Shown piece by piece: positions 1 through 32,108 of a DNA stretch of 39,049 nt. Below the pieces are notes generated by a model that saw only the letters and a program-made list of their open reading frames with translations, had not been told where the DNA came from and made no database searches. Positions within the stretch are counted from its first letter, which is position 1. The number at the start of each line of letters is the position of its first letter. Origin of the DNA: Candidatus Ruminimicrobiellum caprinum (GTDB lineage: Bacteria > Elusimicrobiota > Endomicrobiia > Endomicrobiales > Endomicrobiaceae); assembly GCA_017413305.1 (NCBI GenBank), contig JAFPUA010000158.1:1-39049 (forward strand), read 5' to 3'. The position numbers and the translations under genes are program-made.

Positions 1-141
1 AGCAACCCTTCTGAAAGACAGCAACTTTATCAGCGCTGATAAGTTTGAAGCCGGTGTTGCTGTTAACGGTTCTATCGGTAAGATTGCCGGTGCTTGGATT
101 AAGAAATCCAAGAAGGTTGAAAAGCGGGATGCCGTTACCGC
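1..141. repeat. Terminal overlap, identical to 38909..39049 (circular closure or assembly redundancy)
   Basis: Direct comparison of the first and last lines of the sequence shows that 1..141 equals 38909..39049 base for base. The repeat lies inside one continuous ORF (major capsid). Confidence 0.95.
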
Positions 142-8284: not shown

Positions 8285-10225
8285 ATGTCTAATCTTCATT
8301 TAGTTACCGGGTATGCCGGTGTTGAACACGTTACTTCCAATGACCACGGTTCACTTAATGCCGCTATCATGGGGAATGGTGAATTTGTTCTTGAACGGGG
8401 TAACCAATTTGCTGCAAGCATTCAATCTAATAATAAGGTTAGGGTTCTTGATGGTGATATGCTTATGCAAGGTAGGCATATTAGACTTAAAGAAAACACC
8501 TATGTTGATCTAAACTTTGATAACGGAACACAAGGTTACAAGCGCCTTGATTTAATTGTTGTACGTTATTCAAAGAGTTCAACCACAGATGTTGAAGAAG
8601 CAAATCTTGTAGTTATCAAAGGTACACCTTCTGAAACATCTTATAATGTACCTGATAAAATTACCGGGGATATTCTTAACGAAAGCGCACTTGAAAATGA
8701 TACCGTTCTTTACAGGGTGAAATTTGATGGGCTGAATATTCAGCCGCTTGAAAAGGTGTTTGAAACAATTACCACCTTGGAAACCCTTGAAGAAGATATT
8801 CAAGATACTATTGATGAAATGGTTGAAGATGCGGAAGAAAGGGTTTCAGAAGCAATAGGGCAGCTTTGCACCTTAACCATTACCACGGATGAAAGATTGA
8901 TTGGTTTATCTATAACCTGTACTAATGGGGAAGATACCTTTACCAAAACAGTTCCAGATACTAAAAAAGTTGTTTTCAATCTTCCTTCCCTTGGAACATG
9001 GACGGTTAATAACCCGGTTAAGCAGCAAACCAAAAGTGTTGTCATGCAGTATTACGGGGAATATAACCTTGAACTTTCTGGATATACAAAGCTTTCTGCA
9101 ATCATTGATTTCAGTAAGTCAAACCCTGATTCCATGGTTACTTATGCGGATGAACTTGAAGGATTTACCAAGAAAAGTGACGCAATTCTTAGCACCCCCA
9201 TTTTTGCAGCTTTGAAGAATTGTGTTCTTAACAATGGTGAAGTTGTAAAGTATTTGAACAAATCCAATTTCAGCAAGTATGAAGATGATACTTCTTCTGA
9301 CATTACCACTCTTGGTAATGATGTTATGCTTGAAATTGGGAAGCGTCTTGGTTATCTGATTGAATGGATTGATTCTAATAAGCTGAAAGTTTCCGTAACA
9401 GACAAACCCAATGATGCGGCTTATAAGTATGATGCTTTTTCACTGGATAGCTATAACGATTGCGATAAAATTTATATCGGTGTTTATAAAGGCTATGCAA
9501 GCGGAAATAAGGTTTATAGTTCCAGCGGTAAAGCGCCGACAGTTTCACAGACTATAACAACCTTCCGTTCTTGGTGTAGGGCAAGGGGTGACGGTTACCA
9601 ACAGCGCACATGGGGCAGCGTTAAACTCATGCAATGCCTGTATATTCTTTATACCGGAAACCTTAATTCACAGTCTGCTATTGGTTATGGCTATGTTAAT
9701 TCAAGTCATAATGCTGGCGTTAATACAGGTGGAACAAATGCTTATGGGTTCAATTCAGAAGTAATCAAAGGAACTAATCCTTCTTATATGACAGACCAAA
9801 ATCATCAAGTCAAGTGCCTTGGTATTGAAGATTTTTGGGGTAATTATTGGGAATTTGTTGATGGGCTTCATTCCGGGGCTAACAGGCAGATTCTTACTTG
9901 TGATATTGCCGCTAATTTCAATACAAGCGGTTCGGGATATGAAGATAATGGTAATGGCGGGGTTTCCGCTGATCTTGGAAATTATATGAGTATGGTTCAA
10001 GGCGGTTCAAATGCTGGATTTACCCCTAAAACTGTTAGCGGTTCTGAAACTACTTATCTATGCGATTATGCTTATTTGAGGGTGTCTTGTCTTGCTATTT
10101 TCGGTGGTGCGTGGAATAATACGGGTGGAGCCGGTGCTTTTCGGCTTGATCTTAGTTACGCTGATTCTTTATCCGGTGCCGGTGTCGCTTGTCGCCTGAT
10201 GTTTATGCACAAAGAAACAGCTTAA
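8285..10225 (+). CDS. Tail fibre / receptor-binding protein, DGR target (VR at its C-terminus)
   Basis: 646-aa ORF at the end of the tail block. The last ~47 codons (...YLRVSCLAIFGGAWNNTGGAGAFRLDLSYADSLSGAGVACRLMF...) match the downstream TR, with differences at TR adenines. Confidence 0.8.
   Translation: MSNLHLVTGYAGVEHVTSNDHGSLNAAIMGNGEFVLERGNQFAASIQSNNKVRVLDGDMLMQGRHIRLKENTYVDLNFDNGTQGYKRLDLIVVRYSKSSTTDVEEANLVVIKGTPSETSYNVPDKITGDILNESALENDTVLYRVKFDGLNIQPLEKVFETITTLETLEEDIQDTIDEMVEDAEERVSEAIGQLCTLTITTDERLIGLSITCTNGEDTFTKTVPDTKKVVFNLPSLGTWTVNNPVKQQTKSVVMQYYGEYNLELSGYTKLSAIIDFSKSNPDSMVTYADELEGFTKKSDAILSTPIFAALKNCVLNNGEVVKYLNKSNFSKYEDDTSSDITTLGNDVMLEIGKRLGYLIEWIDSNKLKVSVTDKPNDAAYKYDAFSLDSYNDCDKIYIGVYKGYASGNKVYSSSGKAPTVSQTITTFRSWCRARGDGYQQRTWGSVKLMQCLYILYTGNLNSQSAIGYGYVNSSHNAGVNTGGTNAYGFNSEVIKGTNPSYMTDQNHQVKCLGIEDFWGNYWEFVDGLHSGANRQILTCDIAANFNTSGSGYEDNGNGGVSADLGNYMSMVQGGSNAGFTPKTVSGSETTYLCDYAYLRVSCLAIFGGAWNNTGGAGAFRLDLSYADSLSGAGVACRLMFMHKETA
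10063..10204 (+). repeat. DGR variable region (VR)
   Basis: Gap-free 142-bp alignment to 10328..10469 (offset 265). By hand count there are 26 mismatches, and 25 of them fall at positions that are A in the TR. Confidence 0.9.
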
Positions 10226-10327
10226 TTACGTTCACGTTTTTTGTATATAGGTAGTACCGAAGTGACAAACAGCGTAAAAGGTTAGACCACATCACTTGAA
10301 TAATTGACAAAAACCACTTTTAAGAAA

Positions 10328-10469
10328 CGATTATGCTAATTTGAAGGTGTCTTGTCTTACTATTTTCAGTGGTAAATGGAATAATACGGGTAAAACCGGT
10401 ACTTTTCAACTTAATCTTAATAACACTGATTCTTTATCCAATACCAATGTCACTTGTCACCTATTGTTT
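10328..10469 (+). repeat. DGR template region (TR), non-coding template RNA
   Basis: Adenine-rich copy of the VR, containing AAT/AAC-type codons if translated. It lies 143 bp upstream of the RT gene. Confidence 0.9.
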
Positions 10470-10612
10470 TCCCAAAATAGGTATCTTCTTAGCAAGGTGA
10501 CGGTACTACCTTACCCCTTGGTAAAACAGGGAACTTAGAAATTCCCCATTATTCAGAACCGTATTAGTAACCGGTTCGCAGGTGAAAATTCGGGAAGGAA
10601 AACATCAAATAA

Positions 10613-11743
10613 ATGAAAAGGCATGGTAATATCTATGACAAAATCTGTTCTATAGAAAATTTGCGAGAAGCACACCGCAACGCAAGAAAGGATAAGTTGT
10701 TTTATAAAGAAGTTCAAATGGTTGATAGCAACCCTGATTACTACCTTACACAGATTCAAGAAATGCTATCAAGTGAAACCTATGAAGTTTCTGAATATAC
10801 TTATTCGGTCATTAATGACAAAGGCAAAAGCCGTGATCTTGCAAAATTACCATATTTCCCGGATAGAATTATTCAATGGGCTATTATGCTTCAAATTGAA
10901 CCCGTTTTCATGGAAACCTTTTGTTATCATACTTGTGCAAGCATTAAGCAAAGGGGAATAAGCCGGGTTGTTGATTTGATGCACGAATACTTAAAAGATA
11001 CGAAAAACACAACTTATTGTTTTAAGATGGATGTATCAAAATTTTATCCCAGTATTGACCATGATATTTTGAAGAAGCTGCTTAGAAAGAAATTCAAAGA
11101 TAAAAGGCTTCTTAAATTACTGGATAAGATTATTGATAGCGCAATTACAGAAACCGGTGTTCCAATAGGTTCTTATCTTTCACAATATCTTGCTAATTTC
11201 TACCTTTCATATTTTGACCATTGGATGAAAGAAGAATTACATCTTAAATATGTAGTTCGTTACATGGATGATATTGTTGTTTTATCAAGTTCAAAGCTGC
11301 ATTTACATATTGTTCAAGCGCAAGTTAAACAGTATTTGAACACGGAACTAAATCTAACAATTAAACCGAATTATCAAATATTCCCCGTTGAAAAACGGGG
11401 AATTGATTTTGTCGGATTCCGTTTCTATCATGGGAAAACCTTATTGAGAAAGTCAACCTATAAGAAGATGAAACGAAAGATGCGGAAGATATTGAAGAAG
11501 CAGATGAAGAATCAGCTAATCAATTATTCTGAATTCTGTTCAATCAATTCTTATGCCGGTTGGCTTAAATTATGTGATGGTTACCGCCTTTCACAGAAAT
11601 ACATTATTCCGGTAATACCTTCTTTATTGCGCTATTACAAAGAAATCATTCTTGGAAATAGCAAGAAATCCCCTATAAAGAAGGAAAATGCTTTTATCAA
11701 ATATAAAGAAAACTTGATTAAGAAAGGATTGCTTCAAGAATGA
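10613..11743 (+). CDS. DGR reverse transcriptase
   Basis: 376 aa with the YMDD catalytic box (VRYMDDIVVL) and the DGR-type motif 4, IGSYLSQ (VPIGSYLSQYLANFYL). Adjacent to the TR. Confidence 0.9.
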   Translation: MKRHGNIYDKICSIENLREAHRNARKDKLFYKEVQMVDSNPDYYLTQIQEMLSSETYEVSEYTYSVINDKGKSRDLAKLPYFPDRIIQWAIMLQIEPVFMETFCYHTCASIKQRGISRVVDLMHEYLKDTKNTTYCFKMDVSKFYPSIDHDILKKLLRKKFKDKRLLKLLDKIIDSAITETGVPIGSYLSQYLANFYLSYFDHWMKEELHLKYVVRYMDDIVVLSSSKLHLHIVQAQVKQYLNTELNLTIKPNYQIFPVEKRGIDFVGFRFYHGKTLLRKSTYKKMKRKMRKILKKQMKNQLINYSEFCSINSYAGWLKLCDGYRLSQKYIIPVIPSLLRYYKEIILGNSKKSPIKKENAFIKYKENLIKKGLLQE

Positions 11744-12840: not shown

Positions 12841-13686
12841 ATGACCGCTGTTGAAAAAATTGTTGCCCTTGCAAATTCGGAAGTTGGTTATCATGAAAAA
12901 GCTTCCAATGCAAGCCTTGACGATAAAACAGCTAACAGCGGAACAGGCAATTACACCAAGTATGCCCGTGATCTTGATGCAATCCCCAATTTTTACAACG
13001 GCAAGAAAAACGGGTATGCTTGGTGTGATATTTTTGTTGATTGGTTATTTGTCAAGTGCTTTGGCGCTGCTTTGGCTATGCGGATGCTGTATCAGCCTAC
13101 TTACAGCGCCGGGGCGGGTTGTCTTTATTCAGCCCAATACTATAAGCAGAACGGTGCTTTTAACAATATCCCGGAAGTTGGTAATCAAATCTTTTTCAGC
13201 TACAGCGCCGGGGAAGTTTCCCATACCGGTATTGTGGTTGCTGTTGACGGGAACACGGTAACAACCGTTGAAGGTAATAGTTCTGATGGTACTTATCGAA
13301 GAACCTATAACCGGAACATTGGCAGTATTTACGGTTACGGAAAACCCAATTATGCCCTTGCTGGAAATGTAGATGAATCAGCGGAACAGGCTACAGGTGA
13401 AGCACAAACCCCCGTTACCCCTTCCACCCCTTCCACCCCGGTAACCGGAACAATGGTAACTGTTGAATTACCCCTTTTGAAAAAGGGCGCTATTAATGAT
13501 TCTGTTGAAGCAGTTCAAACCCTGTTAGAACATTGGGGTTACAGTTGCGGAAGATGGGGTATTGATGGTGATTTTGGAAATGACACAGAAGCAGCGGTTA
13601 AAGAGTTCCAGACACAGCACTATTTAACCGCTGATGGTGAGGTTGGAAATATGACCTATAAGGCGCTTTTTGGCCTTTTTTCGTGA
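12841..13686 (+). CDS. Endolysin: N-terminal CHAP amidase/peptidase plus C-terminal PG_binding_1 domain
   Basis: Catalytic-type Cys (YAWCDIFVDW) and His (GEVSHTGIVV). A Pro/Thr linker precedes the C-terminal ...AVQTLLEHWGY...IDGDFGNDTEAAVKEFQ... peptidoglycan-binding repeat. Confidence 0.85.
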   Translation: MTAVEKIVALANSEVGYHEKASNASLDDKTANSGTGNYTKYARDLDAIPNFYNGKKNGYAWCDIFVDWLFVKCFGAALAMRMLYQPTYSAGAGCLYSAQYYKQNGAFNNIPEVGNQIFFSYSAGEVSHTGIVVAVDGNTVTTVEGNSSDGTYRRTYNRNIGSIYGYGKPNYALAGNVDESAEQATGEAQTPVTPSTPSTPVTGTMVTVELPLLKKGAINDSVEAVQTLLEHWGYSCGRWGIDGDFGNDTEAAVKEFQTQHYLTADGEVGNMTYKALFGLFS

Positions 13687-13767: not shown

Positions 13768-13795
13768 TTGCAAACCTTAAAATTTATGATATAAT
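13768..13795 (+). promoter_or_regulatory. SigmaA-type promoter candidate (TTGCAA-16-TGaTATAAT)
   Basis: The -35 TTGCAA is at 13768..13773 and the -10 TATAAT at 13790..13795, preceded by TGa. Confidence 0.4.
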
Positions 13796-13803
13796 ATAAA
13801 CAG

Positions 13804-13851: not shown

Positions 13852-14889
13852 TTAATTAGTGATTAGTTCAATATTCTTTCTCAGTTCATCAATGTTTTTA
13901 TGGGTATAAACTCTTTCGCCGGTTTCCTTAGATTTATGACCCATTAACCTATCAATACAAACCTTATTTGCCCCGGCTGAATCAAGCCTTGATCTAAAGG
14001 TATGCCGGGTTTCATGGGGTGTATGTTCCATTTCAAGTTGCTGCATTAAGGTGTTCCAGATTTCCCGGTATTGACTAACGCTTAGTTTCTTTCCTTGGTA
14101 TTCAAACAGGTAACCGCTTTTAGATTGGTTTATCCGTTGTTCAACTATAGGTTGAATTTTTGAATGAATCGGAACAATCCGGTTCTTTCCCGCCGCTGTT
14201 TTAGTTCCCCCGGTAATAGTCTTTTCCTTTTGGTCAATATTTGAAATCTTAATTTCAAGAACTTCCGAAATTCTAAAACCGGTGTAAAGGAAGAAAGCTA
14301 ATGAATCTGCATAAGGTAATTGCTGGTTATCCCAAACCCGTTTTACTTCTTCATCTGTGAAAATCGTTTTAGTAGTTTCCGGGATGCTTTCAGAAGTCAG
14401 AAGGTCAGAACAGCATTTTTGAATAATGTCTAATTCAGAAGCAAACCGGTCAAGATGCCCCCAAAGGTTTTTAATTGCCCCTTGTGTGCTGTACCCATGT
14501 CCACAATTATCAATGCAATCTTGCATATGATAAGATTTGATTTGGTTATAGCGGTATTTTTCATATTTTTGACAATGCTTATAAGCTGATTTTAAAGAAC
14601 AAAGGTTTGATCTACCAAGTTTAATAGCACGTTTTTCAAGCCAAAGTTCATAAAGTTCTTTTAAGGTGATCTTTGCAGCGTCTATATCCCATGGGGATTT
14701 GTTGTATTCCGCAAGCATGATTAACCCGGCTTCTTTGGTTTCCGTATAGCCGATATTGATTAGAATGGGATAACCTTTTTCATTCTTCCCATTGCTTTTC
14801 CTTACCGCCCATGGTTTACGGCGATTTCCAGACAGCTTAACAACTGTACCATATCCATTAGGATTTTTCATGATTTCATTCCCTTTCAT
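13852..14889 (-). CDS. int: Tyrosine integrase
   Basis: Contains TGFRISEVLE (box I Arg), HETRHTFRS (HxxR), LMGHKS and VYTH (catalytic Tyr). The probable true start is the ATG at 14871 (MKNPNGYG), which has the RBS aaaggga. Confidence 0.9.
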   Translation of the reverse strand: MKGNEIMKNPNGYGTVVKLSGNRRKPWAVRKSNGKNEKGYPILINIGYTETKEAGLIMLAEYNKSPWDIDAAKITLKELYELWLEKRAIKLGRSNLCSLKSAYKHCQKYEKYRYNQIKSYHMQDCIDNCGHGYSTQGAIKNLWGHLDRFASELDIIQKCCSDLLTSESIPETTKTIFTDEEVKRVWDNQQLPYADSLAFFLYTGFRISEVLEIKISNIDQKEKTITGGTKTAAGKNRIVPIHSKIQPIVEQRINQSKSGYLFEYQGKKLSVSQYREIWNTLMQQLEMEHTPHETRHTFRSRLDSAGANKVCIDRLMGHKSKETGERVYTHKNIDELRKNIELITN

Positions 14890-15015
14890 TGACTTTTGGG
14901 GATGAAGTGATTATAATGAACAGTGCATAGCCCATAGAAATCATTTCATCCTTGGTTTCTTTGGTTATTCATCCCGCCCGGTTGACTGTTGCAGCAGTTG
15001 ACCGGGCAATTTTTT

Positions 15016-15219
15016 GTTCCGCTATGTTCCGTTGTTCCGCATGATTTCCTTATACTGTATATTATATATTTTCTTTTTATTTCCTTGAAAGGTTTTATAA
15101 GGTTCTTATAAGGTTATTTAATAAGAACATTGTAAGTTAATCGGAACAGCGGAACAAATTATAGATTTATTAGTATTTTAAGCGGAACAGGCAACGGAAC
15201 AACAGAGGAACAGCGGAAC
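15016..15219. repeat. GTTCCG/CGGAAC motif array A: 3 forward copies, AT-rich core, 5 exact plus 2 degenerate inverted copies
   Basis: GTTCCG occurs at 15016, 15026 and 15034. CGGAAC occurs at 15142, 15150, 15183, 15195 and 15214. Degenerate copies are aGGAAC at 15206 and CGGAAt at 15227. The region is an ORF-free intergenic stretch. Confidence 0.7.
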
Positions 15220-15221
15220 AG

Positions 15222-15653
15222 TTAAACGGAATTTCCCCGCTTATAAATTAAATATCTTTGATTTCTTTCATCCATATAGGGGGTATAAGGTTCAATATCA
15301 TCAAAGAATTTTTGAAACTTTCGCTTCTTTCCTTGTTCCGTTTTCATTTGATTAGCTTCTTCCCAAATTTTGTTATATGCCCGGATTATAAAATCATAAA
15401 TCATTTCTTGCTTATCTTTTTCAAAAGCCGTTTGCATTTCTTCCGGGTTCACAGTTAAAGGAACTTCTTTGGAAAGAACATCTAAAGTATTAATTGCTTT
15501 ATGGAACACTTTTATTCTGGAAAAGAAAACATCCGGGTTAGTTGTATTTTGAAGAATTTCAGAAGATTCTTGCAAAATTCTAATAGCGTTTTCCGCTTCT
15601 TTGGCGGTTAAGGGATTAATTGATTTCTTTTTATTAAACAATCCCATAATCAT
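15222..15653 (-). CDS. Hypothetical protein co-oriented with and coupled to the repressor gene
   Basis: 143-aa ORF. Its start overlaps the repressor stop (ATGA). No recognisable motif. Confidence 0.45.
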   Translation of the reverse strand: MIMGLFNKKKSINPLTAKEAENAIRILQESSEILQNTTNPDVFFSRIKVFHKAINTLDVLSKEVPLTVNPEEMQTAFEKDKQEMIYDFIIRAYNKIWEEANQMKTEQGKKRKFQKFFDDIEPYTPYMDERNQRYLIYKRGNSV

Positions 15654-16982: not shown

Positions 16983-17171
16983 ATGGATAATTTTGAAAGA
17001 TGGGTAATTATCGGTGAAGATGGAAATGGGAAAATAAGTATCTTTTATAAAACCACGCTTCCCGGTGACCAATACACCCTTAACGAAGCTATCAAAGATA
17101 TTAAAACATTTGATGTAACTATACTTGCAGTTTTCCAAGAAAAAGATATTATCAGGCGTTGTCAATTATGA
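16983..17171 (+). CDS. Hypothetical protein
   Basis: 62-aa ORF with an RBS (gaaaggat) upstream. Confidence 0.3.
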   Translation: MDNFERWVIIGEDGNGKISIFYKTTLPGDQYTLNEAIKDIKTFDVTILAVFQEKDIIRRCQL

Positions 17172-17821
17172 AAGGAAAGGTGATCTTCATTAGGGTTTTA
17201 ATTGCTTGTGAAGAATCACAAGTAGTTTGTAAAGCTTTTCGGGAATTAGGGCATGAAGCATATAGTTGTGATCTGGAAGGGTGTTCCGGTGGTTACCCGG
17301 AATGGCACATTCAAGCGGATGCTTTAGAACTAATTAAAATCAAATGGGATTTGATAATTGCACACCCGCCGTGTACCTTCCTTAGTAATGCCGGGGCTTG
17401 CCGAATGTACCCACATAAAGGGGAAATTGATCTTGAACGGTATCAAAAAGCCCTTGAAGCAAAAGCCTTTTTCATACGGTTCTTAAATGCCGATTGCCCC
17501 CCGGATAGCGGTTGAAAATCCCCGCCCTTTGAAAGTGGTTGGATTACCGGAAGAAACGCAAAGAATACAACCTTATCAGTTTGGTGAACCTTTTTCAAAG
17601 TTAACTTATCTTTGGTTAAAAAATCCCCCCCCCTAATGCCGACAAAAATACTCAATTCTTATAAACCGTACGTTTCTTGTGGTACAAGTGCAAACAAAGG
17701 AAATCCAGATAAAGCCGGTGTTAGTCGTGCGGGTGGAGCGGCAAAAATTAGGTCAAAAACATTTCCCGGTGTAGCTAAAGCAATGGCGTTACAATGGGGA
17801 AATTTGGAAGGGGGTGTAAGT
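17159..17821 (+). pseudogene. C5 DNA cytosine methyltransferase-like gene broken into three frame segments at poly-C tracts
   Basis: Segment 1 (17159..17515) carries AHPPCTFLS (PC motif). Segment 2, in another frame, reads (IA)VENPRPL...IQPYQFGEPFSKLTYLWLKN. Segment 3 (from about 17633) reads PLMPTKIL...RSKTFPGVAKAMALQWG. The frame changes coincide with C6 (17497..17502) and C9 (17625..17633). Confidence 0.55.
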
Positions 17822-18019
17822 ATGAAGAAAATTAAAGTTGCTTGGATTGAACAGATTCTTGAATTTGATTCTGTTGAAGAAGCAACCGGGTACAGAAAAA
17901 GCTTGGAAACCGGTAGACCCCAAAAGTTCAAGATTCTTGATGAAAGAATCATTGAAAGTGGTAAGGTAGAAATCAGAATTAGAAAGCAGTATAACAACAA
18001 TGCTTTCCCGGATGATTGA
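17822..18019 (+). CDS. Hypothetical protein (internal ATG with its own RBS, in frame with the last methyltransferase segment)
   Basis: The RBS ggaaggggg lies 6 nt upstream of the ATG at 17822 (MKKIKVAWIEQ...). Homologous methyltransferase-like proteins, as I recall them, end near QWG. Confidence 0.3.
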   Translation: MKKIKVAWIEQILEFDSVEEATGYRKSLETGRPQKFKILDERIIESGKVEIRIRKQYNNNAFPDD

Positions 18020-18688: not shown

Positions 18689-19630
18689 ATGGTCAAAGGT
18701 TATAAGGCTTTTGATAAAGATTGGGTTTGCCGCCCCTGTTCCGGTGTAAAGAAACAGTATTCTTGCCCCGGAATGTTTGAAACCACAACTAAACCTTCTG
18801 TTTGCAATCATGGAATGCACTTCTGCAAGGAACTGAAAGATGTGTTTGATTACTATTCCAATTCCCCGGAAGAAGTAAGGATTGCCGAAGTGATCGCACA
18901 TGGGGAAGTTGCAGAGCATGGGAACAAGTGCAGCACCAACAAACTTGAAGTTGTGCGGGAAATCCCATGGGAAGAAGTTTACCGCCTTGTGAATGAAGGA
19001 AAAGGCTGTTCTGGTATCTGCAACACCGGCGACTGCAACACCGGCAACCGGAACACCGGCGACTGCAACACCGGCAACCGGAACACCGGCGACTGGAACA
19101 CCGGCGACTGGAACACCGGCAACCGGAACACCGGCGACTGCAACACCGGCAACCGGAACACCGGCAACTGGAACACCGGCGACTGCAACACCGGCAACCG
19201 GAACACCGGCAACCGGAACACCGGCAACCGGAACACCGGCGACTGCAACACCGGCAACCGGAACACCGGCGACTGGAACAAAACAAGCTTTTCTTCCGGG
19301 TGTTTCTGTACAGAAGAACCGAAAATCATGATGTTCAATAAACCTTCTGATTGGACTATGAGAATGTGGTTTGAATCAGATGCCCGTTACATTCTGAATC
19401 AGATTCCTAAGAATGTTGTGGAATGGGTTTGGGAACAGGATATGACCGATGAAGAAAAGGCCGCTAATCCTTCCTATAAGACAACAGGCGGTTATTGCAG
19501 AATCCCGAATGAAAGCGAAAATGCACAACGCTTTTGGGATGGATTACCCGATAATCAGCGGGAAATCATTTATCAGCTTCCCAATTTTGATAAAGAAATC
19601 TTTGAAGCTTGCACCGGTATCAAAATTTAA
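18689..19630 (+). CDS. Pentapeptide-repeat protein (17 x NTG[DN][CRW]) with a Cys-rich N-terminal domain
   Basis: 313-aa ORF. The central region is NTGDC/NTGNR/NTGDW repeated 17 times, and an RBS (gaaaggaagg) lies upstream. Confidence 0.7.
   Translation: MVKGYKAFDKDWVCRPCSGVKKQYSCPGMFETTTKPSVCNHGMHFCKELKDVFDYYSNSPEEVRIAEVIAHGEVAEHGNKCSTNKLEVVREIPWEEVYRLVNEGKGCSGICNTGDCNTGNRNTGDCNTGNRNTGDWNTGDWNTGNRNTGDCNTGNRNTGNWNTGDCNTGNRNTGNRNTGNRNTGDCNTGNRNTGDWNKTSFSSGCFCTEEPKIMMFNKPSDWTMRMWFESDARYILNQIPKNVVEWVWEQDMTDEEKAANPSYKTTGGYCRIPNESENAQRFWDGLPDNQREIIYQLPNFDKEIFEACTGIKI
19022..19276 (+). repeat. 17 tandem 15-bp repeats (aacaccggcRacYgS) inside a CDS
   Basis: Exact 15-bp periodicity from 19022 to 19276. 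The units differ at only 3 positions. Confidence 0.9.
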
Positions 19631-25052: not shown

Positions 25053-26825
25053 GTGATTACAATTCTATTCTATGATTTTGAAGTGTTCAAATATGATTGG
25101 TTGGTTGTAATCATGGATATGACCGAAAAGAAAGAAACCGTCATTGTTAATGATGTGGATGCCCTTGAAGCCTTTTATCAAAGCAAAATCAATGATATTT
25201 GGGCGGGGTTCAATTCCCGGAACTATGACCAATGGATTTTGAAAGGTTTGCTTTGTGGCTTTGACCCTAAGAAAATCAATGATTACATCATTGTGAAAGG
25301 TAACCCCGGATGGAAATACAGCAGCTTGTTTAGGGGTATGCAACTTTACAACTATGATGTAATGGCAAACATTGACCGGGGCTTAAAAGTTTTTGAGGGG
25401 TTCATGGGAAATAACATTAAAGAAACAAGTGTTCCTTTTGACATTGATCGGAAGTTGACCCCGGAAGAAATAGAACAGACGGTTTTTTATTGTAGGCATG
25501 ATGTACAGCAGACTATTGAAGTTTTCCTAAAGCGCAAGGATGATTTTACCGCCCATATGGGTTTAGTGAAGCTTGCTTGTGAAGGGCGGGAACTTGATTT
25601 GAACCTTTTGGGAAAAACTAAAGCCCAACTTGCCGCCGTTATTCTGGAAGCAACACAGAAACCCCATAAAGATGAATTTGATATAGATTTTCCAGATACC
25701 TTAGATATTCACAAATACACCCATGTTTTAGATTGGTACAATGACCCGGAACATAGAAAATATACCTTCACTGTTCCCGGAAAGAAAACCCCGGAGAAAA
25801 TGCAGCTTCAAACCACTATTGCCGGTTGTCCCCATGTTTTTGCATGGGGCGGAGTACATGGGGCGCTTGAAAAATATCATGGTAAGGGATATTTCCTAAT
25901 GGCTGATGTTGCTTCCCTATATCCTTCCTTGATGATTCGTTACAATCTTCATTCCCGAAACATGAAAGACCCTAAGAAGTATGAAGAAATCTATCATACC
26001 CGGCTTAAATATAAGGCTGAAAAGAACCCGCTGCAAGCGCCTTTGAAGTTGGTGCTAAATTCTACTTATGGAGTTATGAAAGACCCAAATAATGGGTTAT
26101 ATGACCCAAGACAGGCAAACAGGGTTTGCATTTACGGTCAGTTGCTTATTCTGGATTTGATAGAACATCTTGAAGTGATTCCCGGCTTGCAGCTTATTCA
26201 ATCAAACACAGATGGTATTTTAATCAAAATGGCTAATGCAGATGATTATTACCGGGTGGATGATATTTGTGCAACATGGGAAGAAAGAACAGGGTTGAAT
26301 TTGGAATTTGATGAATATTCAGAAGTGTTTCAGAAGGATGTAAACAATTATCTGATTCTTCCCCATGGTGATTTGTACGATGAAAAAGGAAAACCCCGGT
26401 GGAAGTCTAAAGGTGCTTATGTGAAGAAATTAAACCCGCTGGATTATGACTTACCTATTATAAATCAAGCTTTGGTTGATTATATGGTGAAGAAAATTCC
26501 GGTGGAAAGAACAATAGCCGCTTGCAATGATCTAAAGGAATTCCAACTTGTAACTAAGATTTCCGGTAAGTATGAAGTAATTCTTCATGGTGGAAAACCC
26601 TTAAATGAAAAGTGTATTAGAATCTTTGCTTCAACAGATGAAGCGGATGGGGGAGTTTATAAAGTACACGCTGAAACACATAAACCCGCAAAGATTCAAA
26701 ATAGCCCGGAACATTGCTTTATCTTCAATGATGAAGTGAACGGGGTTAAATGCCCTTCCAAGCTGGATAGAACTTGGTATGTTGCCCTTGCAAACAAGCG
26801 GTTGAAAGATTTTGGGGTGATCTAA
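25053..26825 (+). CDS. Family B DNA polymerase
   Basis: Exo motif FYDFEV; motif A DVASLYPSLM; motif B KLVLNSTYGV; motif C QSNTDGILI. GTG start after the RBS gaaaggaag. Confidence 0.85.
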   Translation: MITILFYDFEVFKYDWLVVIMDMTEKKETVIVNDVDALEAFYQSKINDIWAGFNSRNYDQWILKGLLCGFDPKKINDYIIVKGNPGWKYSSLFRGMQLYNYDVMANIDRGLKVFEGFMGNNIKETSVPFDIDRKLTPEEIEQTVFYCRHDVQQTIEVFLKRKDDFTAHMGLVKLACEGRELDLNLLGKTKAQLAAVILEATQKPHKDEFDIDFPDTLDIHKYTHVLDWYNDPEHRKYTFTVPGKKTPEKMQLQTTIAGCPHVFAWGGVHGALEKYHGKGYFLMADVASLYPSLMIRYNLHSRNMKDPKKYEEIYHTRLKYKAEKNPLQAPLKLVLNSTYGVMKDPNNGLYDPRQANRVCIYGQLLILDLIEHLEVIPGLQLIQSNTDGILIKMANADDYYRVDDICATWEERTGLNLEFDEYSEVFQKDVNNYLILPHGDLYDEKGKPRWKSKGAYVKKLNPLDYDLPIINQALVDYMVKKIPVERTIAACNDLKEFQLVTKISGKYEVILHGGKPLNEKCIRIFASTDEADGGVYKVHAETHKPAKIQNSPEHCFIFNDEVNGVKCPSKLDRTWYVALANKRLKDFGVI

Positions 26826-27226
26826 TGGAAGAAAAAAAAGAAACCATAATCAAAATAAATTGGGGTTCTGGAAACATGGTTTTCATTGCTGAAAAGTTCT
26901 TTCCGATTACCGCCGAAAAAATGACAAAGCTTTATAAAAAGTGTATTCGTCATGATTGGAAACACCAAGATGAAATTGTAAAGCAGATTTTTGAAGCGCT
27001 AAATTGGAAAGAACAGGATTTGAAAAAAACCTTAGAATTTCAGATTACCCGAAAAGCAGATATTGAACAGGAATTAGCCCTTTTAAGGGGTAGAAGCTTG
27101 GAAAAAGACCAAGTTAAAAACAAATTAGCCAACATAAAAGAACAGGTCAGATTGACAAATCAAGAGTTGAAACAGGTTCAAAAGAATATTGAACTTTTAA
27201 CCATGCTTTCAACACCTAAGAAGTAG
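26825..27226 (+). CDS. Hypothetical coiled-coil protein
   Basis: ATG overlaps the polymerase stop (TAATG). Sequence MEEKKETIIK.... Confidence 0.4.
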   Translation: MEEKKETIIKINWGSGNMVFIAEKFFPITAEKMTKLYKKCIRHDWKHQDEIVKQIFEALNWKEQDLKKTLEFQITRKADIEQELALLRGRSLEKDQVKNKLANIKEQVRLTNQELKQVQKNIELLTMLSTPKK

Positions 27227-27234
27227 GTGGAATT

Positions 27235-29163
27235 ATGGGTTGGACTGGAAACAATACCGCTTTCAGAACTTACATAAAGGGGAAAGATAAAGCTTCCGCA
27301 GAAGCACACAAAGGGAAAGACCATGTAAGAACCTTTGAAGATGCTTCTCAATTCCCTTCCTTTGGTGCTGCTTTGAATGATGGGTTTGTTGATATTTCCT
27401 TTGATACGGAAGAACTTTCAAACAAGTTCCTTGATATTGCCGATAAACACGGCTGGAACTGCTTGATTCTGGAAAACATTGAAAATGGTCACATTCACAG
27501 CATTTGGAAAGATACCAAGCACCGAATTATTAAAGATGGGAGAGATAAAAAGCTTGCTGTTGGCTTAATAGCCGATATTCACAGCGGTTCAACCTATATC
27601 CCTTTACGGGTAAACGGTGTTGATAGATTTCCCCCGTATTTTGACCCGGAAAACACCTTTGATGAAGTTCCTAATGAATTGCTTCCTGTTTCAACTACTA
27701 TTGATCTGCTTGGAATGGAAGAAGGGGATGGAAGGAATGATACCCTTTACCGCTATATTCTGATTCTTCAAAATCAGCTTTATCTTGAAGATGAAGCTAT
27801 TAGGGCGGTTATTCGGAATATCAATGAATTCATCTTAAAAGAACCGCTTTCAGAAGAAGAACTAAGTGTAATCTTACGGGATGAAAGCTTTCAAAAACCT
27901 TCTTTCTTCAAAGGTAATACATTCCTGTTTGATAAATTCGCTGCTTACATTGTCAATATAGCCCATGTTGTTAGTATCAATAATCAGCTTCACATTTACC
28001 GGGATGGGGCTTATGTAACTGGCTATAGAGCAATAGAGAAAATCATGATAAAAAGCATTCCCAATTTGAAGAAAACACAGCGCCGGGAAGTAATTGAATA
28101 CATGGAACTGATAGCAGAAACCTTGAAACCCGCTGATGCCCGGTATATTGCTTTTCGGAATGGAATTTACAACATAGTTGAAAATAGTTTAACACCCTTC
28201 ACCCCTAACTTGGTTATCACTAATAAAATAGATTGGGATTATAACCCAAATGCCTATTCTGAATTAGCTGATACAGTTCTTAACCGGATTTCCTGTAATG
28301 ATCGGGAAGTAAGGCTTTTGCTGGAAGAATGTATTGGTTACTGTTTTTATCGCCGCAATGAACGGGGAAAAGCTTTCATCTTGACCGGTGCAAAATCAAA
28401 CGGTAAATCAACTTTTTTGGACTGTATCAAAACGGTTCTTGGAGCGGATAACATTTCTGCTTTGGAATTGAAAGAATTAGGTGATAGGTTTTCTTCCGCT
28501 ATGATGTTTGGAAAGCTGGCTAACCTTTCGGATGATATAGCAGATGATTTCTTACAGGGAAGCCAAATAAGCACCTTTAAGAAAGTGGTAACCGGTAACC
28601 GGATAAAAGCGGAACGGAAAGGGCAAGACCCCTTTGAATTTGAACCTTATGTGAAAATCATTGCTTCCGCTAATGATATTCCAAGAACAAAAGACAGAAC
28701 CGGGGCAGTTCTTAGGCGCTTGGTGATTATCCCCTTTAACGCAAGCTTTGAACCGCTGCTTCCAGATGGAACACCTAACCCAAACTATGATTCTGAAATC
28801 AAGTATAAGCTGTTTGAACAGGATTGTATTGAATACTTCATTAAGGTTGGTATTGAAGGGTTGCAACGGGTTATAAAGAATGATCGTTTCACAGAACCGC
28901 AAGTTGTAACAGAAGCCTTGAAAGGATATGAAGAAGAAAATAACCCCATTATTGGTTTTCTGGAACAAACGGAACTTGATGAAATCGAAAATGAACCTAC
29001 CCCCGATGTTTACCGGCTGTATCAGGTGTTTTGTGCTGAAAACGGTATGAACCCCATGGGCGCTAAAGAATTCACCAAACAGGTTTGCAAGCGGTTGAAC
29101 ATGGATGTAAAAGATGCAAGGGTGAACGGAAGAAAAACCCGGATTTATGTTAGAAAGGATTGA
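27235..29163 (+). CDS. Primase-helicase (prim-pol-like N-terminus plus P4/D5-family NTPase)
   Basis: 642 aa with Walker A LTGAKSNGKSTFLD and Walker B-like NLSDD. The overall architecture is typical of phage/plasmid P4-family primases. Confidence 0.8.
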   Translation: MGWTGNNTAFRTYIKGKDKASAEAHKGKDHVRTFEDASQFPSFGAALNDGFVDISFDTEELSNKFLDIADKHGWNCLILENIENGHIHSIWKDTKHRIIKDGRDKKLAVGLIADIHSGSTYIPLRVNGVDRFPPYFDPENTFDEVPNELLPVSTTIDLLGMEEGDGRNDTLYRYILILQNQLYLEDEAIRAVIRNINEFILKEPLSEEELSVILRDESFQKPSFFKGNTFLFDKFAAYIVNIAHVVSINNQLHIYRDGAYVTGYRAIEKIMIKSIPNLKKTQRREVIEYMELIAETLKPADARYIAFRNGIYNIVENSLTPFTPNLVITNKIDWDYNPNAYSELADTVLNRISCNDREVRLLLEECIGYCFYRRNERGKAFILTGAKSNGKSTFLDCIKTVLGADNISALELKELGDRFSSAMMFGKLANLSDDIADDFLQGSQISTFKKVVTGNRIKAERKGQDPFEFEPYVKIIASANDIPRTKDRTGAVLRRLVIIPFNASFEPLLPDGTPNPNYDSEIKYKLFEQDCIEYFIKVGIEGLQRVIKNDRFTEPQVVTEALKGYEEENNPIIGFLEQTELDEIENEPTPDVYRLYQVFCAENGMNPMGAKEFTKQVCKRLNMDVKDARVNGRKTRIYVRKD

Positions 29164-30772: not shown

Positions 30773-30781
30773 GCCGTTTTT

Positions 30782-31059
30782 GTTCCGCTGTTCCGCTGAT
30801 TGTTCCGTTAAAGTTGTTTTAGCGGAACAGAGTAAAAGCCTTAATTTACTTATGTTTTTAAGATGCTTGTTCCGCTGTTCCGCTGAATGGTTAATGTTCT
30901 TATATAAGACTTTAGTATATTAAAGTATATAAAAATAATAATATATAGAATATAGGCGATTTTTGCGGAACAACGGAACAGAATGTTAAAAAAGCCTTGA
31001 TTTTACAGGGTTTTTAAGGTGTTCCGCTAAAATCAGCAGCGGAACAAGCGGAACGGAAC
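30782..31059. repeat. GTTCCG/CGGAAC motif array B: 6 forward and 6 inverted exact copies around an AT-rich core
   Basis: GTTCCG occurs at 30782, 30790, 30802, 30869, 30877 and 31021. CGGAAC occurs at 30823, 30966, 30974, 31040, 31049 and 31054. The 18-mer GTTCCGCTGTTCCGCTGA is repeated exactly at 30782 and 30869. Confidence 0.75.
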
Positions 31060-31084
31060 AGATTCTATAGAAAGGGGTGTTAAT

Positions 31085-31504
31085 GTGACTTTCTTTGAAG
31101 CAAAGAAGTATTTGCAGCAAGTAAGGATTCTGAATCAGAACATCAATATAAAAATGCAAAGGCTTTACGAAATGAAGCAACAGCGGCTTTGTATTCCGGC
31201 TAATGACTATTCTAAAGATAAAGTTCAATCTTCTTTGAATGGTGATAATCTTGAAAAATTAATTTCAAAAATCGTTGATCTTGATGAAGAAATAAATACT
31301 TTGATTGATTCTTATGTTTCGTTAAAATGGGAAATCATTAAAAAGCTGGAACGGTTAGAGAATAAGAAGCAGCGAGAAGTTTTGCTTCTAAAATACATAG
31401 ATGGTGAATCTATTTCAGAAATAGCCTTTGAAATGAATTTATCCGCAAACCGGATAAAACAGATAACAAATGATGGAATTATGAACTTTGCAAAAATATC
31501 TTGA
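31085..31504 (+). CDS. Sigma-70 region 4-like late transcription regulator (RinA/DUF1492-like)
   Basis: The C-terminal ...REVLLLKYIDGESISEIAFEMNLSANRIKQITNDGIMNF is a sigma region-4 type HTH. GTG start after the RBS aaagggg. It lies immediately upstream of the packaging genes. Confidence 0.6.
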   Translation: MTFFEAKKYLQQVRILNQNINIKMQRLYEMKQQRLCIPANDYSKDKVQSSLNGDNLEKLISKIVDLDEEINTLIDSYVSLKWEIIKKLERLENKKQREVLLLKYIDGESISEIAFEMNLSANRIKQITNDGIMNFAKIS

Positions 31505-31679: not shown

Positions 31680-32108
31680 ATGATTGCCGTGAATAGAAAA
31701 CAAAAGAAGTTTGCAGATGAATACTTGATTGATTGCAATGCTACACAAGCGGCAATCAGGGCGGGTTATTCACCTAAGACAGCTAAACAGGTTGGTCAAA
31801 GGCTGTTGACAAATGTTGACCTTTCAACCTACATTGAACAGCAACTTGAACAGATTCACAATGAAAAAACCGCTGACGCTCAAGAAGTTCTTGAATATCT
31901 TACCGCTGTTATGCGGGGTGAACACACAGAACAGGCGCTTAGATTAGTTGGTGAAGGTATTCAAACAATAGATACTATGGAAGTTTCAGCTAAAGACAGA
32001 TTGAAAGCCGCTGAATTGATCGGTAAGCGCTATGGAATGTTCAAAGATAATGTGAATGTTGCCGGTTCTATTCCGGTTGTAATTGCGGATGATCTGGAAA
32101 CCGATTAA
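31680..32108 (+). CDS. terS: Terminase small subunit (Terminase_2 type)
   Basis: KQKKFADEYLIDCNATQAAIRAGYSPKTAKQVGQRLL is the characteristic N-terminal HTH of this family. Confidence 0.85.
   Translation: MIAVNRKQKKFADEYLIDCNATQAAIRAGYSPKTAKQVGQRLLTNVDLSTYIEQQLEQIHNEKTADAQEVLEYLTAVMRGEHTEQALRLVGEGIQTIDTMEVSAKDRLKAAELIGKRYGMFKDNVNVAGSIPVVIADDLETD

What the first reader, a model, noticed from the sequence alone, without database searches (positions are those of the whole stretch)
15016..15232. GTTCCG/CGGAAC motif array A between the integrase and the repressor operon
This ORF-free intergenic region carries three forward GTTCCG copies at 15016, 15026 and 15034. A ~100-bp AT-rich core follows, with its own repeats: ttataaggtt occurs twice and gttcttat/ataagaac forms an inverted pair. 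Then come five exact and two degenerate inverted CGGAAC copies, two pairs of which are in 8-bp tandem (CGGAACAGCGGAAC). From rough base composition I expect well under one copy by chance. Just upstream, a long hairpin with a T6 tail (14977..15016, gcccggttgactg...cagttgaccgggc) sits where no plus-strand gene ends. The convergent iteron-like layout around an AT-rich core suggests a multi-site binding platform. It could be an origin, a partition-like site, integrase arm sites or a regulator array. It is mirrored at 30.8-31.1 kb.
Basis: seen in the sequence. Interest (0 to 1): 0.65.

Follow-up and report, generated by a model that had tools for sequence, protein, structure and literature searches.

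The report
Paired iteron replication-origin modules of a phage
The repeat array between the integrase and repressor genes is real, and is most likely one of two copies of a replication-origin module bound by the phage's own primase-helicase, a known kind of origin (as in satellite phage P4 and staphylococcal SaPI islands) not yet described for this phage group.

Summary
GTTCCG occurs 57 times against 10.8 expected. Eight exact copies lie in array A (15016-15219) and 12 in array B (30782-31059). Each array flanks a core of about 20% GC.

The window is a circular 38.9-kb temperate phage from ruminant gut. The attP crossover lies about 1.2 kb away, at roughly 13784-13800, so array A is not a set of integrase arm sites.

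More than 30 related phage and prophage loci carry the same architecture with near-invariant spacing: F-F-F-21-R-46-F-F, about 90 bp of AT-rich DNA, then R-R-47-F. The repeat word differs by lineage (GTTCAAG, TGTTACA, GTGTCAC and others). In several genomes arrays A and B share the same word. In three cultured relatives the array sits directly 3' of the primase-helicase gene.

The word does not track the integrase, repressor, TerS or the sigma-like protein. It does track the C-terminal winged-helix wing of the primase-helicase, a homologue of SaPI PriRep5 (PDB 7OLA) and of the P4 alpha family.

Best reading: a SaPI/P4-type iteron origin present twice, like P4 ori plus crr. The function is inferred, not shown. 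It is a new member of a known kind, of moderate interest.

The parts
14889..14917 (+). Promoter-like site TTGACT-17-TATAAT (11 of 12 matches), pointing towards the hairpin and array A. Together with the terminator it could give a transcript of about 90 nt.
   Evidence: Its function is not shown. There is a weak sub-threshold Rfam hit to sar RNA at 14952-15011.
14976..15013 (+). Hairpin with a 14-bp stem plus a T6 tract at the left edge of array A. A homologous hairpin with T7 precedes the first iteron of the same array in relatives L006 and L003. Other hairpins sit at the left edge of B-type arrays in L017 and L041.
15015..15041 (+). Left iteron set of array A: three forward copies TGTTCCGCT, TGTTCCGTT and TGTTCCGCA, spaced 10 and 8 bp apart.
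15042..15141 (.). AT-rich core of array A (20% GC), the putative DNA-unwinding element. It contains TTATAAGGTT twice and the inverted pair GTTCTTAT/ATAAGAAC, which relates to the constant element ACTTCTTATATA seen in array B and in relatives.
15142..15156 (-). Proximal right iteron pair of array A: two reverse copies in 8-bp tandem (CGGAACAGCGGAACA). With the left set this forms the F-F / AT / R-R dyad.
15183..15232 (-). Distal right iterons of array A. Three are exact (15183, 15195, 15214) and two degenerate (15206 AGGAAC, 15227 CGGAAT). The set overlaps the stop codon of the 143-aa ORF (15222-15653, minus strand).
30781..30829 (.). Array B, outer left set: three forward iterons (30782, 30790, 30802) and one reverse (30823). 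It starts 9 nt after the stop of the preceding gene.
30834..30865 (.). Array B, conserved spacer element (AAAAGCCTTAATTT...). This AAAGCCTTGAT-type element recurs at 30990-31021 and in all relatives. It keeps the R-to-F distance at 46-47 bp.
30868..30884 (+). Array B, inner left iteron pair (TGTTCCGCTGTTCCGCT, 8-bp tandem).
30885..30964 (.). Array B AT-rich core (17.5% GC), bounded by GTTCTTATATAAG on the left and ATATATAGAATATAGG on the right. Both boundary elements are conserved across motif classes.
30965..30980 (-). Array B, inner right iteron pair (GCGGAACAACGGAACA).
31020..31060 (.). Array B, outer right set: one forward iteron (31021) and three reverse (31040, 31049, 31054). It ends 25 nt before the start of the sigma-r4/DUF1492 gene (31085-31504).
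27235..29163 (+). Primase-helicase, the proposed initiator. It has D5_N, DUF5906 and Pox_D5 domains and is homologous to SaPI5 PriRep5 (PDB 7OLA). Its C-terminal winged-helix region spans about residues 560-642 (window 28912-29160). The wing sequence is VKDARVNGRKTRIYV.

Best explanation
Array A is one of two copies (A at 15015-15232, B at 30781-31060) of an iteron-type replication-origin module. The 8-9-bp word TGTTCCGC(T) is the iteron.

The proposed binder is the C-terminal winged-helix domain of the phage's own self-loading SF3 primase-helicase (27235-29163). Tandem iterons point towards each other across an 80-100-bp core of about 20% GC. This would let two helicase rings assemble head to head and melt the core, after which the enzyme primes and unwinds in both directions.

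The two modules bracket the lysogeny-plus-early region. A lies next to int. B lies at the early/late boundary. This is the same topology as crr and ori of satellite phage P4, which share one octamer (TGTTCACC) bound by the alpha primase-helicase.

Shown here: the arrays exist, they are highly non-random, they are conserved in architecture across many relatives, and the word changes by lineage.

Inferred: that the helicase is the binder, that the AT core is melted, and whether A fires as an origin or acts as a crr-like auxiliary site.
For: 1. Statistics and anatomy.

2. Conservation. More than 30 related loci from IMG/VR, bacterial genomes or MAGs, and three cultured phages carry the same layout. 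The spacing is nearly invariant: F~10F~11F-21-R-46-F-8..10-F, then about 90-100 bp at 7-21% GC, then R-7..8-R-47-F. The word itself differs: GGTTCAAG, TGTTACA, GTACAAG, GTGTCAC, GGACAAG, AAGTAGGCGG, GTAACAGA, GGTTACAG, CATAAGACA.

3. A and B share one word within a genome. This holds in the window, in the L003/L052 contig, and in L019, L020 and L045.

4. Position in cultured relatives. In Paenibacillus phage Wanderer, Bacillus phage BMBtp15 and Staphylococcus phage PI-Sepi-HH2 the array lies immediately 3' of the primase-helicase gene. That is where SaPI origins lie (PMC9371898).

5. Homology of the helicase. It matches PriRep5 (7OLA) at E = 1e-40, and the match runs into the C-terminal domain. 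A profile of the C-terminal domains alone hits 7OLA residues 653-749 at E = 4e-10, with weak hits to RFX5 and to the Cdc6 winged helix. PMC9371898 states that these C-terminal winged helices bind 5-6-nt iterons. It also states that there are 6-12 iterons, an AT-rich centre, and at least two iterons on each side pointing in opposite directions.

6. Covariation. The wing signature D[KR]K[IV].[GN][KR]K.R[IV][FL] is present in 22 of 22 loci with GTTCAAG arrays and in 0 of 12 loci with other words. The window and L052 share the word and also share FTKQxCKRL..DAR..KTRIY, although they are only 52% identical overall and 30% in the N-terminal domain.

7. Other DNA-binding proteins do not track the word. 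This was checked for int, the repressor, TerS, the DUF1492 recognition helix and the 130-aa HTH protein.

8. The P4 record annotates ten type-1 repeats in crr and six in ori, with the same topology.
Against: - There is no experimental or read-depth evidence of initiation. Only assembled contigs were available, so no coverage peak or read ends could be examined.
- GC skew follows transcription and does not locate an origin.
- The covariation is confounded by phylogeny. The C-terminal domain evolves fast in all lineages, and the Fisher test is not phylogeny-corrected.
- In the gut clade the B array always directly precedes a sigma-r4-like late-regulator gene, while variable cargo separates it from the helicase gene. 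The A array directly precedes int. A role in transcription therefore cannot be excluded and may coexist with an origin role.
- Why two modules are needed is unexplained.
- The AlphaFold model of the C-terminal domain was of low confidence (pLDDT 55).
Confidence: 0.66

Rival explanations
1. The arrays are transcription-control regions. An unidentified lineage-specific DNA-binding protein occupies the repeats and controls promoters inside or next to the AT-rich cores. These would be the int promoter at array A and the promoter of the sigma-r4-like late regulator at array B, so that excision and late expression are coordinated.
For: - B-type arrays always lie directly upstream of a sigma-r4-like gene. 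In relatives, cargo genes are inserted between the helicase gene and the array, never between the array and that gene.
- A-type arrays lie directly upstream of int.
- The conserved ATATAGAA element at the right edge of the core resembles a -10 box.
Against: - No candidate regulator tracks the motif. The DUF1492 recognition helix is nearly the same in L036 (TGTTACA) and L024 (GTTCAAG).
- Two non-orthologous regulator types follow arrays that carry the same motif.
- The 130-aa HTH protein of L031 is very similar to that of L017 although the two phages use different motifs.
- The repressor is only 25% identical between two genomes that share a motif.
- No consensus sigma-70-type promoter was found in either core.
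- The dyad of tandem repeats across about 90 bp of roughly 20% GC DNA matches origin anatomy.
- In cultured relatives the array abuts the helicase gene.
Confidence: 0.15
2. The arrays are packaging-recognition (pac/cos) or partition (centromere) sites, bound by the small terminase or by a ParB-like protein.
For: - Array B lies about 620 bp upstream of terS (31680-32108).
- An unrelated contig (L005) has a GTTCCG array just upstream of terminase genes.
- The motif resembles half of a Firmicutes parS site. This last point is recalled from memory, not tested.
Against: - TerS does not track the motif. The window and L017 TerS are 60% identical, yet their motifs differ.
- In Wanderer the array lies about 1.7 kb from the deposited genome ends.
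- Array A is nowhere near the packaging genes.
- No ParA or ParB was found among the ORFs scanned.
- The phage integrates, so it does not need a partition system.
Confidence: 0.05
3. Array A is a set of integrase arm-type sites of attP.
For: It is adjacent to int. Convergent repeats around an AT-rich centre superficially resemble the P and P' arms of attP.
Against: - Homology between the phage and integrated or remnant contigs breaks at 13784-13800, between the lysin gene and the 3' end of int. A short shared core (TATCA) is present at both L012 junctions, and a CNNM-domain host gene lies beyond.
- Contig loose ends at 13779 and 13797 in run X5 point to the same site.
- Array A is therefore about 1.2 kb from the core, with the int gene in between.
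- The same motif forms a second array 15.7 kb away.
- The motif does not follow integrase similarity.
Confidence: 0.02

Closest known systems
Satellite phage P4: ori and crr, bound by the alpha primase-helicase
   Same: - Two separate non-coding regions carry the same 8-bp iteron in both orientations. In P4 the word is TGTTCACC, with 10 copies in crr and 6 in ori. Here it is TGTTCCGC, with 8 exact copies (plus 2 degenerate) in A and 12 in B.
- Tandem copies are 8-11 bp apart.
- One region lies next to int/attP and the other at the boundary with the late genes, so the pair brackets the early/replication operon.
- The initiator belongs to the same family (D5_N, Pox_D5 PF03288) and has a C-terminal winged helix.
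(PMC2777425, PMC8628076)
   Different: - P4 crr consists of two 120-bp direct repeats. No such repeats are present here.
- P4 crr abuts the 3' end of alpha. Here neither array abuts the helicase gene.
- The P4 arrays are about 4.7 kb apart in an 11.6-kb satellite. Here they are 15.7 kb apart in a 38.9-kb autonomous phage with its own DNA polymerase.
- The N-terminal primase domain here gives no Pfam hit, whereas P4 alpha has a DnaG-type primase.
- Whether both sites are needed in cis is unknown.
SaPI / PICI replication origins, bound by Rep / PriRep self-loading helicases
   Same: - Short iterons lie in two sets flanking an AT-rich centre, with at least two iterons on each side pointing in opposite directions.
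- The initiator is an SF3 helicase whose C-terminal winged helix gives ori specificity.
- The window's protein matches PriRep5 (7OLA) at E = 1e-40.
- In cultured relatives the array lies immediately 3' of the gene.
(PMC9371898, PMC6092414)
   Different: - SaPIs have one ori, directly after rep. Here there are two modules, both displaced from the gene.
- Iterons here are 7-9 bp rather than 5-6.
- Array B has extra outer iteron sets and conserved hairpin spacers at fixed distances of 46-47 bp.
- The element is a complete temperate phage, not a satellite.
Predicted origins of Streptococcus phages (downstream of the replication module) and the SPP1 oriL/oriR pair
   Same: - A non-coding repeat region at the end of the replication module of Firmicutes siphophages is taken as the origin (PMC13575424).
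- From memory, not checked here: SPP1 has two distant regions, oriL and oriR, bound by the same origin-binding protein G38P.
   Different: - The SPP1 initiator is a different protein family, with a separate helicase and loader.
- The Streptococcus phage origins are single.
- Sequence-level comparison was not done.

Membership tests
SaPI/PICI-type (Rep/PriRep) iteron origin | The element encodes an SF3 self-loading helicase/primase homologous to Rep/PriRep, including the C-terminal winged-helix domain. | tested here: met
   Pfam D5_N, DUF5906 and Pox_D5. phmmer against 7OLA gives E = 1e-40 over residues 251-617. A profile of the C-terminal domains hits 7OLA 653-749 at E = 4e-10.
SaPI/PICI-type (Rep/PriRep) iteron origin | Six to twelve short iterons, an AT-rich centre, and at least two iterons on each side pointing in opposite directions. 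| tested here: met
   Array A reads F-F-F, 102 bp at 21% GC, then R-R-R-R-R. Array B reads F-F, 83 bp at 19% GC, then R-R, plus outer sets.
SaPI/PICI-type (Rep/PriRep) iteron origin | The ori lies immediately downstream of the rep ORF. | tested here: not met
   In the window, B starts 1.6 kb after the helicase stop with two genes in between, and A is about 12 kb away. The feature is met in the cultured relatives Wanderer, BMBtp15 and PI-Sepi-HH2.
SaPI/PICI-type (Rep/PriRep) iteron origin | The initiator's C-terminal domain binds the iterons specifically, and the region supports replication. | not testable with these tools
   Only indirect evidence exists: the wing signature tracks the motif, 22 of 22 against 0 of 12, and the class-1 pair shares wing residues.
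P4 ori/crr system | The same octamer iteron occurs in two separate cis regions that bracket the early operon. | tested here: met
   for the window. for the P4 record.
P4 ori/crr system | crr is built of two 120-bp direct repeats directly 3' of alpha. | tested here: not met
   No long direct repeats occur within A or B. Neither array abuts the helicase gene.
P4 ori/crr system | Both regions are required in cis for replication. | not testable with these tools
   This needs deletion and complementation experiments.
Tyrosine-integrase attP arm-type sites | The repeats flank the crossover core within a few hundred bp. | tested here: not met
   The core lies at about 13784-13800, downstream of int. 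Array A is about 1.2 kb away.
Tyrosine-integrase attP arm-type sites | The repeat word follows the integrase. | tested here: not met
   Integrases 57-62% identical to the window's go with GTTCAAG, whereas a 34%-identical integrase goes with GTTCCGC.
ParB/parS-type centromere | A cognate ParA/ParB pair is encoded by the element. | tested here: not met
   No such domains were found in the ORFs scanned with Pfam and PHROGs. The structural-gene ORFs were not scanned.
pac/cos packaging site | The site is recognised by TerS and lies at or next to the genome termini. | tested here: inconclusive
   TerS similarity does not follow the motif. The Wanderer array lies about 1.7 kb from the deposited ends. 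No raw reads were available to map termini of this phage.

The most novel reading that the evidence does not exclude
The two origin modules may not be redundant. They could form a functional pair that the primase-helicase bridges, by looping or handcuffing across the 15.7-kb lysogeny-plus-early region. In that case helicase loading at A (next to int) and at B (next to the late-regulator gene) would couple replication initiation to int expression and to late-gene switch-on. Alternatively, it could drive in-situ amplification of the bracketed early region before excision. The conserved 46-47-bp hairpin spacers and the short promoter-terminator unit at 14889-15013 would be parts of this control.
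Probability: 0.12. Interest if true: 0.7.

Novelty: new member of a known kind. Interest (0 to 1): 0.42.

Why it matters
- It gives a concrete origin annotation for a widespread group of temperate Firmicutes phages. The group includes the cultured phages Wanderer, BMBtp15 and PI-Sepi-HH2, whose records as read here annotate no origin.
- The family offers a natural specificity-swap series. The architecture and spacing stay fixed, at least ten different iteron words occur, and the winged-helix wing changes with them. This series could be used to work out how RFX-like winged helices of SF3 initiators read DNA, and to design orthogonal origin-initiator pairs.
- The pairing of two modules around the early region extends the P4 ori/crr arrangement to full-size phages. 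It makes the question of why two sites are needed testable in a second system.

Tried and rejected
- Megablast of 24 kb against INPHARED phages gave no relative.
- The only tRNA call (19078-19163) lies inside the coding tandem repeat and is spurious.
- GC and AT skew follow the transcription strand and give no origin signal.
- All public runs that hold the phage are kept as Logan contigs, including the one metatranscriptome. No depth gradient, read ends or transcription starts could be read.
- Rfam gave nothing above threshold. The sar hit scores 27.8 bits against a gathering score of 43.
- A single-sequence AlphaFold model of the C-terminal domain had pLDDT 55, so no fold search was run.
- The P4 papers (PMID 8253092, PMC413647) are not held. 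The P4 GenBank record was used instead.
- Four of the six IMG/VR hits to the 18-mer share no protein with the window: L001, L002, L004 and L005. L005 has a true GTTCCG array, but in an unrelated podovirus-like contig.
- The DUF1492/sigma-like protein, the 130-aa HTH protein, the repressor, the integrase and TerS were each considered as the binder. Each was rejected for lack of covariation with the motif.
- Pairwise identity by domain did not isolate the C-terminal domain sharply. Only the wing signature did.

Full report
**The observation**

- There are three forward GTTCCG copies (15016, 15026, 15034).
- A 100-bp core follows (15042-15141) at 20% GC, against 39% for the genome. It holds its own small repeats.
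- Five exact CGGAAC copies follow (15142, 15150, 15183, 15195, 15214), with two degenerate copies (15206, 15227).
- A strong hairpin with a T6 tail lies at 14976-15013 (-25.2 kcal/mol, z = -6.4).

One detail is off. Only the first 8-bp tandem is exact.

GTTCCG occurs 57 times in the window against 10.8 +/- 3.0 in dinucleotide-preserving shuffles. Eight copies are in array A and twelve in array B (30782-31059). Eight more lie in a coding 15-bp tandem repeat. Of the remaining 29, 28 are inside genes, mostly as the codon pair GGA-ACx, and one is intergenic. The fuller word is TGTTCCGC(T), with 11 of its 14 occurrences in the two arrays.

**Context**

The window ends in a 141-bp overlap, so it is a circular contig of 38.9 kb. 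It is a temperate siphophage-like genome found in goat, sheep, bovine and other gut metagenomes.

The gene order, is:
- tail genes;
- a diversity-generating retroelement;
- holin and lysin (12841-13686);
- int (13852-14889, minus strand);
- array A;
- a 143-aa ORF and an XRE repressor (minus strand);
- SprT, a split methyltransferase and HTH proteins;
- a pentapeptide-repeat protein;
- SNF2 helicase, PD-(D/E)XK/AAA_24, DUF669 and a DNA polymerase;
- a D5/P4-alpha-type primase-helicase (27235-29163);
- an HD protein and phrog_6721;
- array B;
- a sigma-r4/DUF1492 protein (31085-31504);
- TerS, TerL and portal.

The two arrays therefore bracket the lysogeny-plus-early region.

**Array A is not attP**

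Contigs that carry exactly this integrase include rearranged or integrated forms. Their homology to the phage stops at 13784-13800, between the lysin gene and the 3' end of int. A short shared core is present at both L012 junctions, and a CNNM-domain host gene lies beyond. Contig loose ends at 13779 and 13797 in another run agree. Array A is about 1.2 kb from this core, with the int gene in between.

**Conservation with a changing word**

A scan of IMG/VR for the 18-mer found relatives L003 and L006. There the same word forms an array between int and the repressor, including a hairpin with T7 directly before the first iteron. Their int is only 34-35% identical to the window's, and their repressor only 22-25%.

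Thirty IMG/VR loci have primase-helicases 44-54% identical to the window's. Eight further loci come from bacterial genomes or MAGs: one has a 93%-identical helicase and the other seven are 45-52% identical. Among these loci the same architecture appears with other words:
- GGTTCAAG in most;
- TGTTACA in L036 and L046;
- GTACAAG in L029;
- AAGTAGGCGG in L037;
- GTGTCAC in L058;
- GGACAAG in L059.

The spacing is almost invariant across word classes. It runs F~10F~11F-21-R-46-F-8..10-F, then about 90-100 bp at 7-21% GC, then R-7..8-R-47-F. Constant elements sit at fixed places: ACTTCTTATATA, ATATAGAA and an AAAGCCTTGAT-type hairpin.

An A-type array between int and the repressor, carrying the same word as that genome's B array, is present in L019, L020 and L045 and in the L003/L052 contig. 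L028 also has an A-type array.

Three cultured relatives have the module immediately 3' of the primase-helicase gene. They are Paenibacillus phage Wanderer, Bacillus phage BMBtp15 and Staphylococcus phage PI-Sepi-HH2.

**Who binds?**

The word does not follow the integrase. L019 and its relatives have an int 57-62% identical to the window's but use GTTCAAG. L006 has an int 34% identical but uses GTTCCGC.

It does not follow the repressor or TerS (the window and L017 TerS are 60% identical).

It does not follow the sigma-like protein. Two non-orthologous types follow arrays with the same word. The DUF1492 recognition helix of L036 (TGTTACA) is nearly that of L024 (GTTCAAG).

It does not follow the 130-aa HTH protein. 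That of L031 is very similar to that of L017, yet the extended L031 contig (L046) carries a TGTTACA array.

The primase-helicase is homologous to SaPI5 PriRep5 (7OLA, E = 1e-40), and the match runs into the C-terminal domain. A profile of the C-terminal domains alone hits 7OLA 653-749 at E = 4e-10, and weakly hits RFX5 and a Cdc6 winged helix. A low-confidence model gives helix-helix-beta-hairpin at the very C terminus.

The beta-hairpin ('wing') sequence sorts with the word. The signature D[KR]K[IV].[GN][KR]K.R[IV][FL] is in 22 of 22 loci with GTTCAAG arrays and in none of 12 loci with other words. L041 has a near-signature and a degenerate, mixed array. The Fisher p-value is 1.6e-8, but it is not corrected for phylogeny.

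The window and L052 share the word and also share FTKQxCKRL...DAR..KTRIY. They are only 52% identical overall and 30% in the N-terminal domain.

This evidence is suggestive, not proof. The C-terminal domain evolves fast everywhere.

**Comparison with known systems**

PMC9371898 describes SaPI origins. They consist of 6-12 short iterons immediately downstream of rep, with an AT-rich centre and at least two iterons on each side pointing in opposite directions. The iterons are bound by the winged helix of the Rep C-terminal domain. PMC6092414 reports the same layout for PICIs.

The P4 GenBank record annotates ten type-1 repeats (TGTTCACC) in crr. This region lies 3' of alpha, next to attP and int. 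The record annotates six more in ori, next to the late genes. P4 thus has two arrays of one octamer bracketing its early operon, as here. P4 alpha has a C-terminal RFX-like winged helix (PMC2777425) and is defined by the same Pfam family, PF03288, that hits the window's protein (PMC8628076).

The window departs from these systems in four ways. Neither array abuts the helicase gene. There are no crr-type 120-bp repeats. Array B has extra outer iteron sets. The element is a full-size phage with its own polymerase.

**Verdict**

Array A is most likely one of two iteron origin modules recognised by the phage's self-loading primase-helicase (confidence about 0.66).

The main rival is a transcription-control role at the int and late-regulator promoters (about 0.15). 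It cannot be excluded and could coexist with origin function. Packaging or partition (about 0.05) and integrase arm sites (about 0.02) are poorly supported or contradicted.

Nothing here shows initiation directly. No raw reads were available for coverage or end mapping, and GC skew is uninformative.

It is a new member of a known kind. The value lies in annotating the origin for a broad phage group and in the natural iteron/wing swap series.

Noticed in passing
window 10047-10220 (VR), 10310-10480 (TR), 10613-11743 (RT): This is a diversity-generating retroelement. An RVT_1 reverse transcriptase sits beside a template repeat. Of the 42 mismatches between the template repeat and a copy at the 3' end of the tail-fibre-like gene (8285-10225), 30 fall at template adenines.
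   Followed up: partly
window 13784-13800; loci L012, L013, L014; run X5: This is the likely attP crossover core (TATCA region), between the lysin gene and the int terminator hairpin. At the same point, L012 and L013 continue into non-phage sequence that encodes a CNNM-domain gene. L014 also breaks here, but into a different sequence.
   Followed up: partly
L054 (Clostridia MAG contig JAZQCS010000114.1), L012, L013: These are deletion and rearrangement derivatives. The end of TerL (window 33610) is joined to an inverted lysogeny module (16239 to 13784). L054 keeps the replication genes, both arrays, the sigma-like gene, TerS, TerL, the repressor and int, but no virion genes were found within the 17.9-kb locus held. 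It may be a defective prophage or a satellite-like element.
   Followed up: partly
window 14889-15013: A strong plus-strand promoter-like site (TTGACT-17-TATAAT) is followed about 60 nt later by the terminator hairpin, divergent from int. It may encode an RNA of about 90 nt. There is a sub-threshold Rfam hit to the P22 antisense RNA sar (27.8 bits, gathering score 43). L006 has a TATAAT at a similar distance. A-type arrays of L028 and L019 lack the hairpin.
   Followed up: partly
window 19020-19280 (gene 18689-19630): A 15-bp coding tandem repeat encodes pentapeptide repeats (Pentapeptide_2 plus DUF7666). Near-identical phages carry shorter products at this position (243 aa or a 100-aa fragment in L008, L010 and L011, against 313 aa here). 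The repeat causes a false tRNA-Arg call and 8 of the GTTCCG hits.
   Followed up: partly
window 17159-17515 and 17612-18019: Two adjacent ORFs match the N- and C-terminal parts of one DNA methyltransferase family (phrog_757). The gene appears split or frameshifted.
   Followed up: no
L015 1-40; run X1 loose ends at window 15083 and 15170; run X5 joint 30939 to 31214: Some contigs diverge inside the arrays. In L015 the distal part of array A is replaced by sequence that resembles array B. The arrays may be hot spots of variation or recombination, or of assembly branching.
   Followed up: no
L048 (Paenibacillus phage Wanderer) 36190-36454 and 39654-39700: Wanderer has two further repeat arrays with other words. 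TGAAGG/CCTTCA occurs about 9 times upstream of the primase operon, with the same AAACCCTTGAT element. GAGAC occurs 5 times as direct repeats downstream of a transcriptional-regulator gene and upstream of the HNH and terminase genes.
   Followed up: no
L005 1-400 (IMGVR_UViG_3300005805_001555): An unrelated contig of about 50% GC, with podovirus-like terminase and portal genes, starts with an array of 9 GTTCCG/CGGAAC copies plus CCTTATAAGG. It shares no protein with the window.
   Followed up: partly
window 27235-27835 (helicase residues 1-200) and 26774-27226: The N-terminal domain of the window's primase-helicase is only about 30% identical to that of all relatives, which are 50-84% identical to each other. 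It gives no Pfam hit. An extra 150-aa ORF precedes the gene here and in L054, but not in more distant relatives, where the polymerase gene abuts the helicase gene.
   Followed up: no
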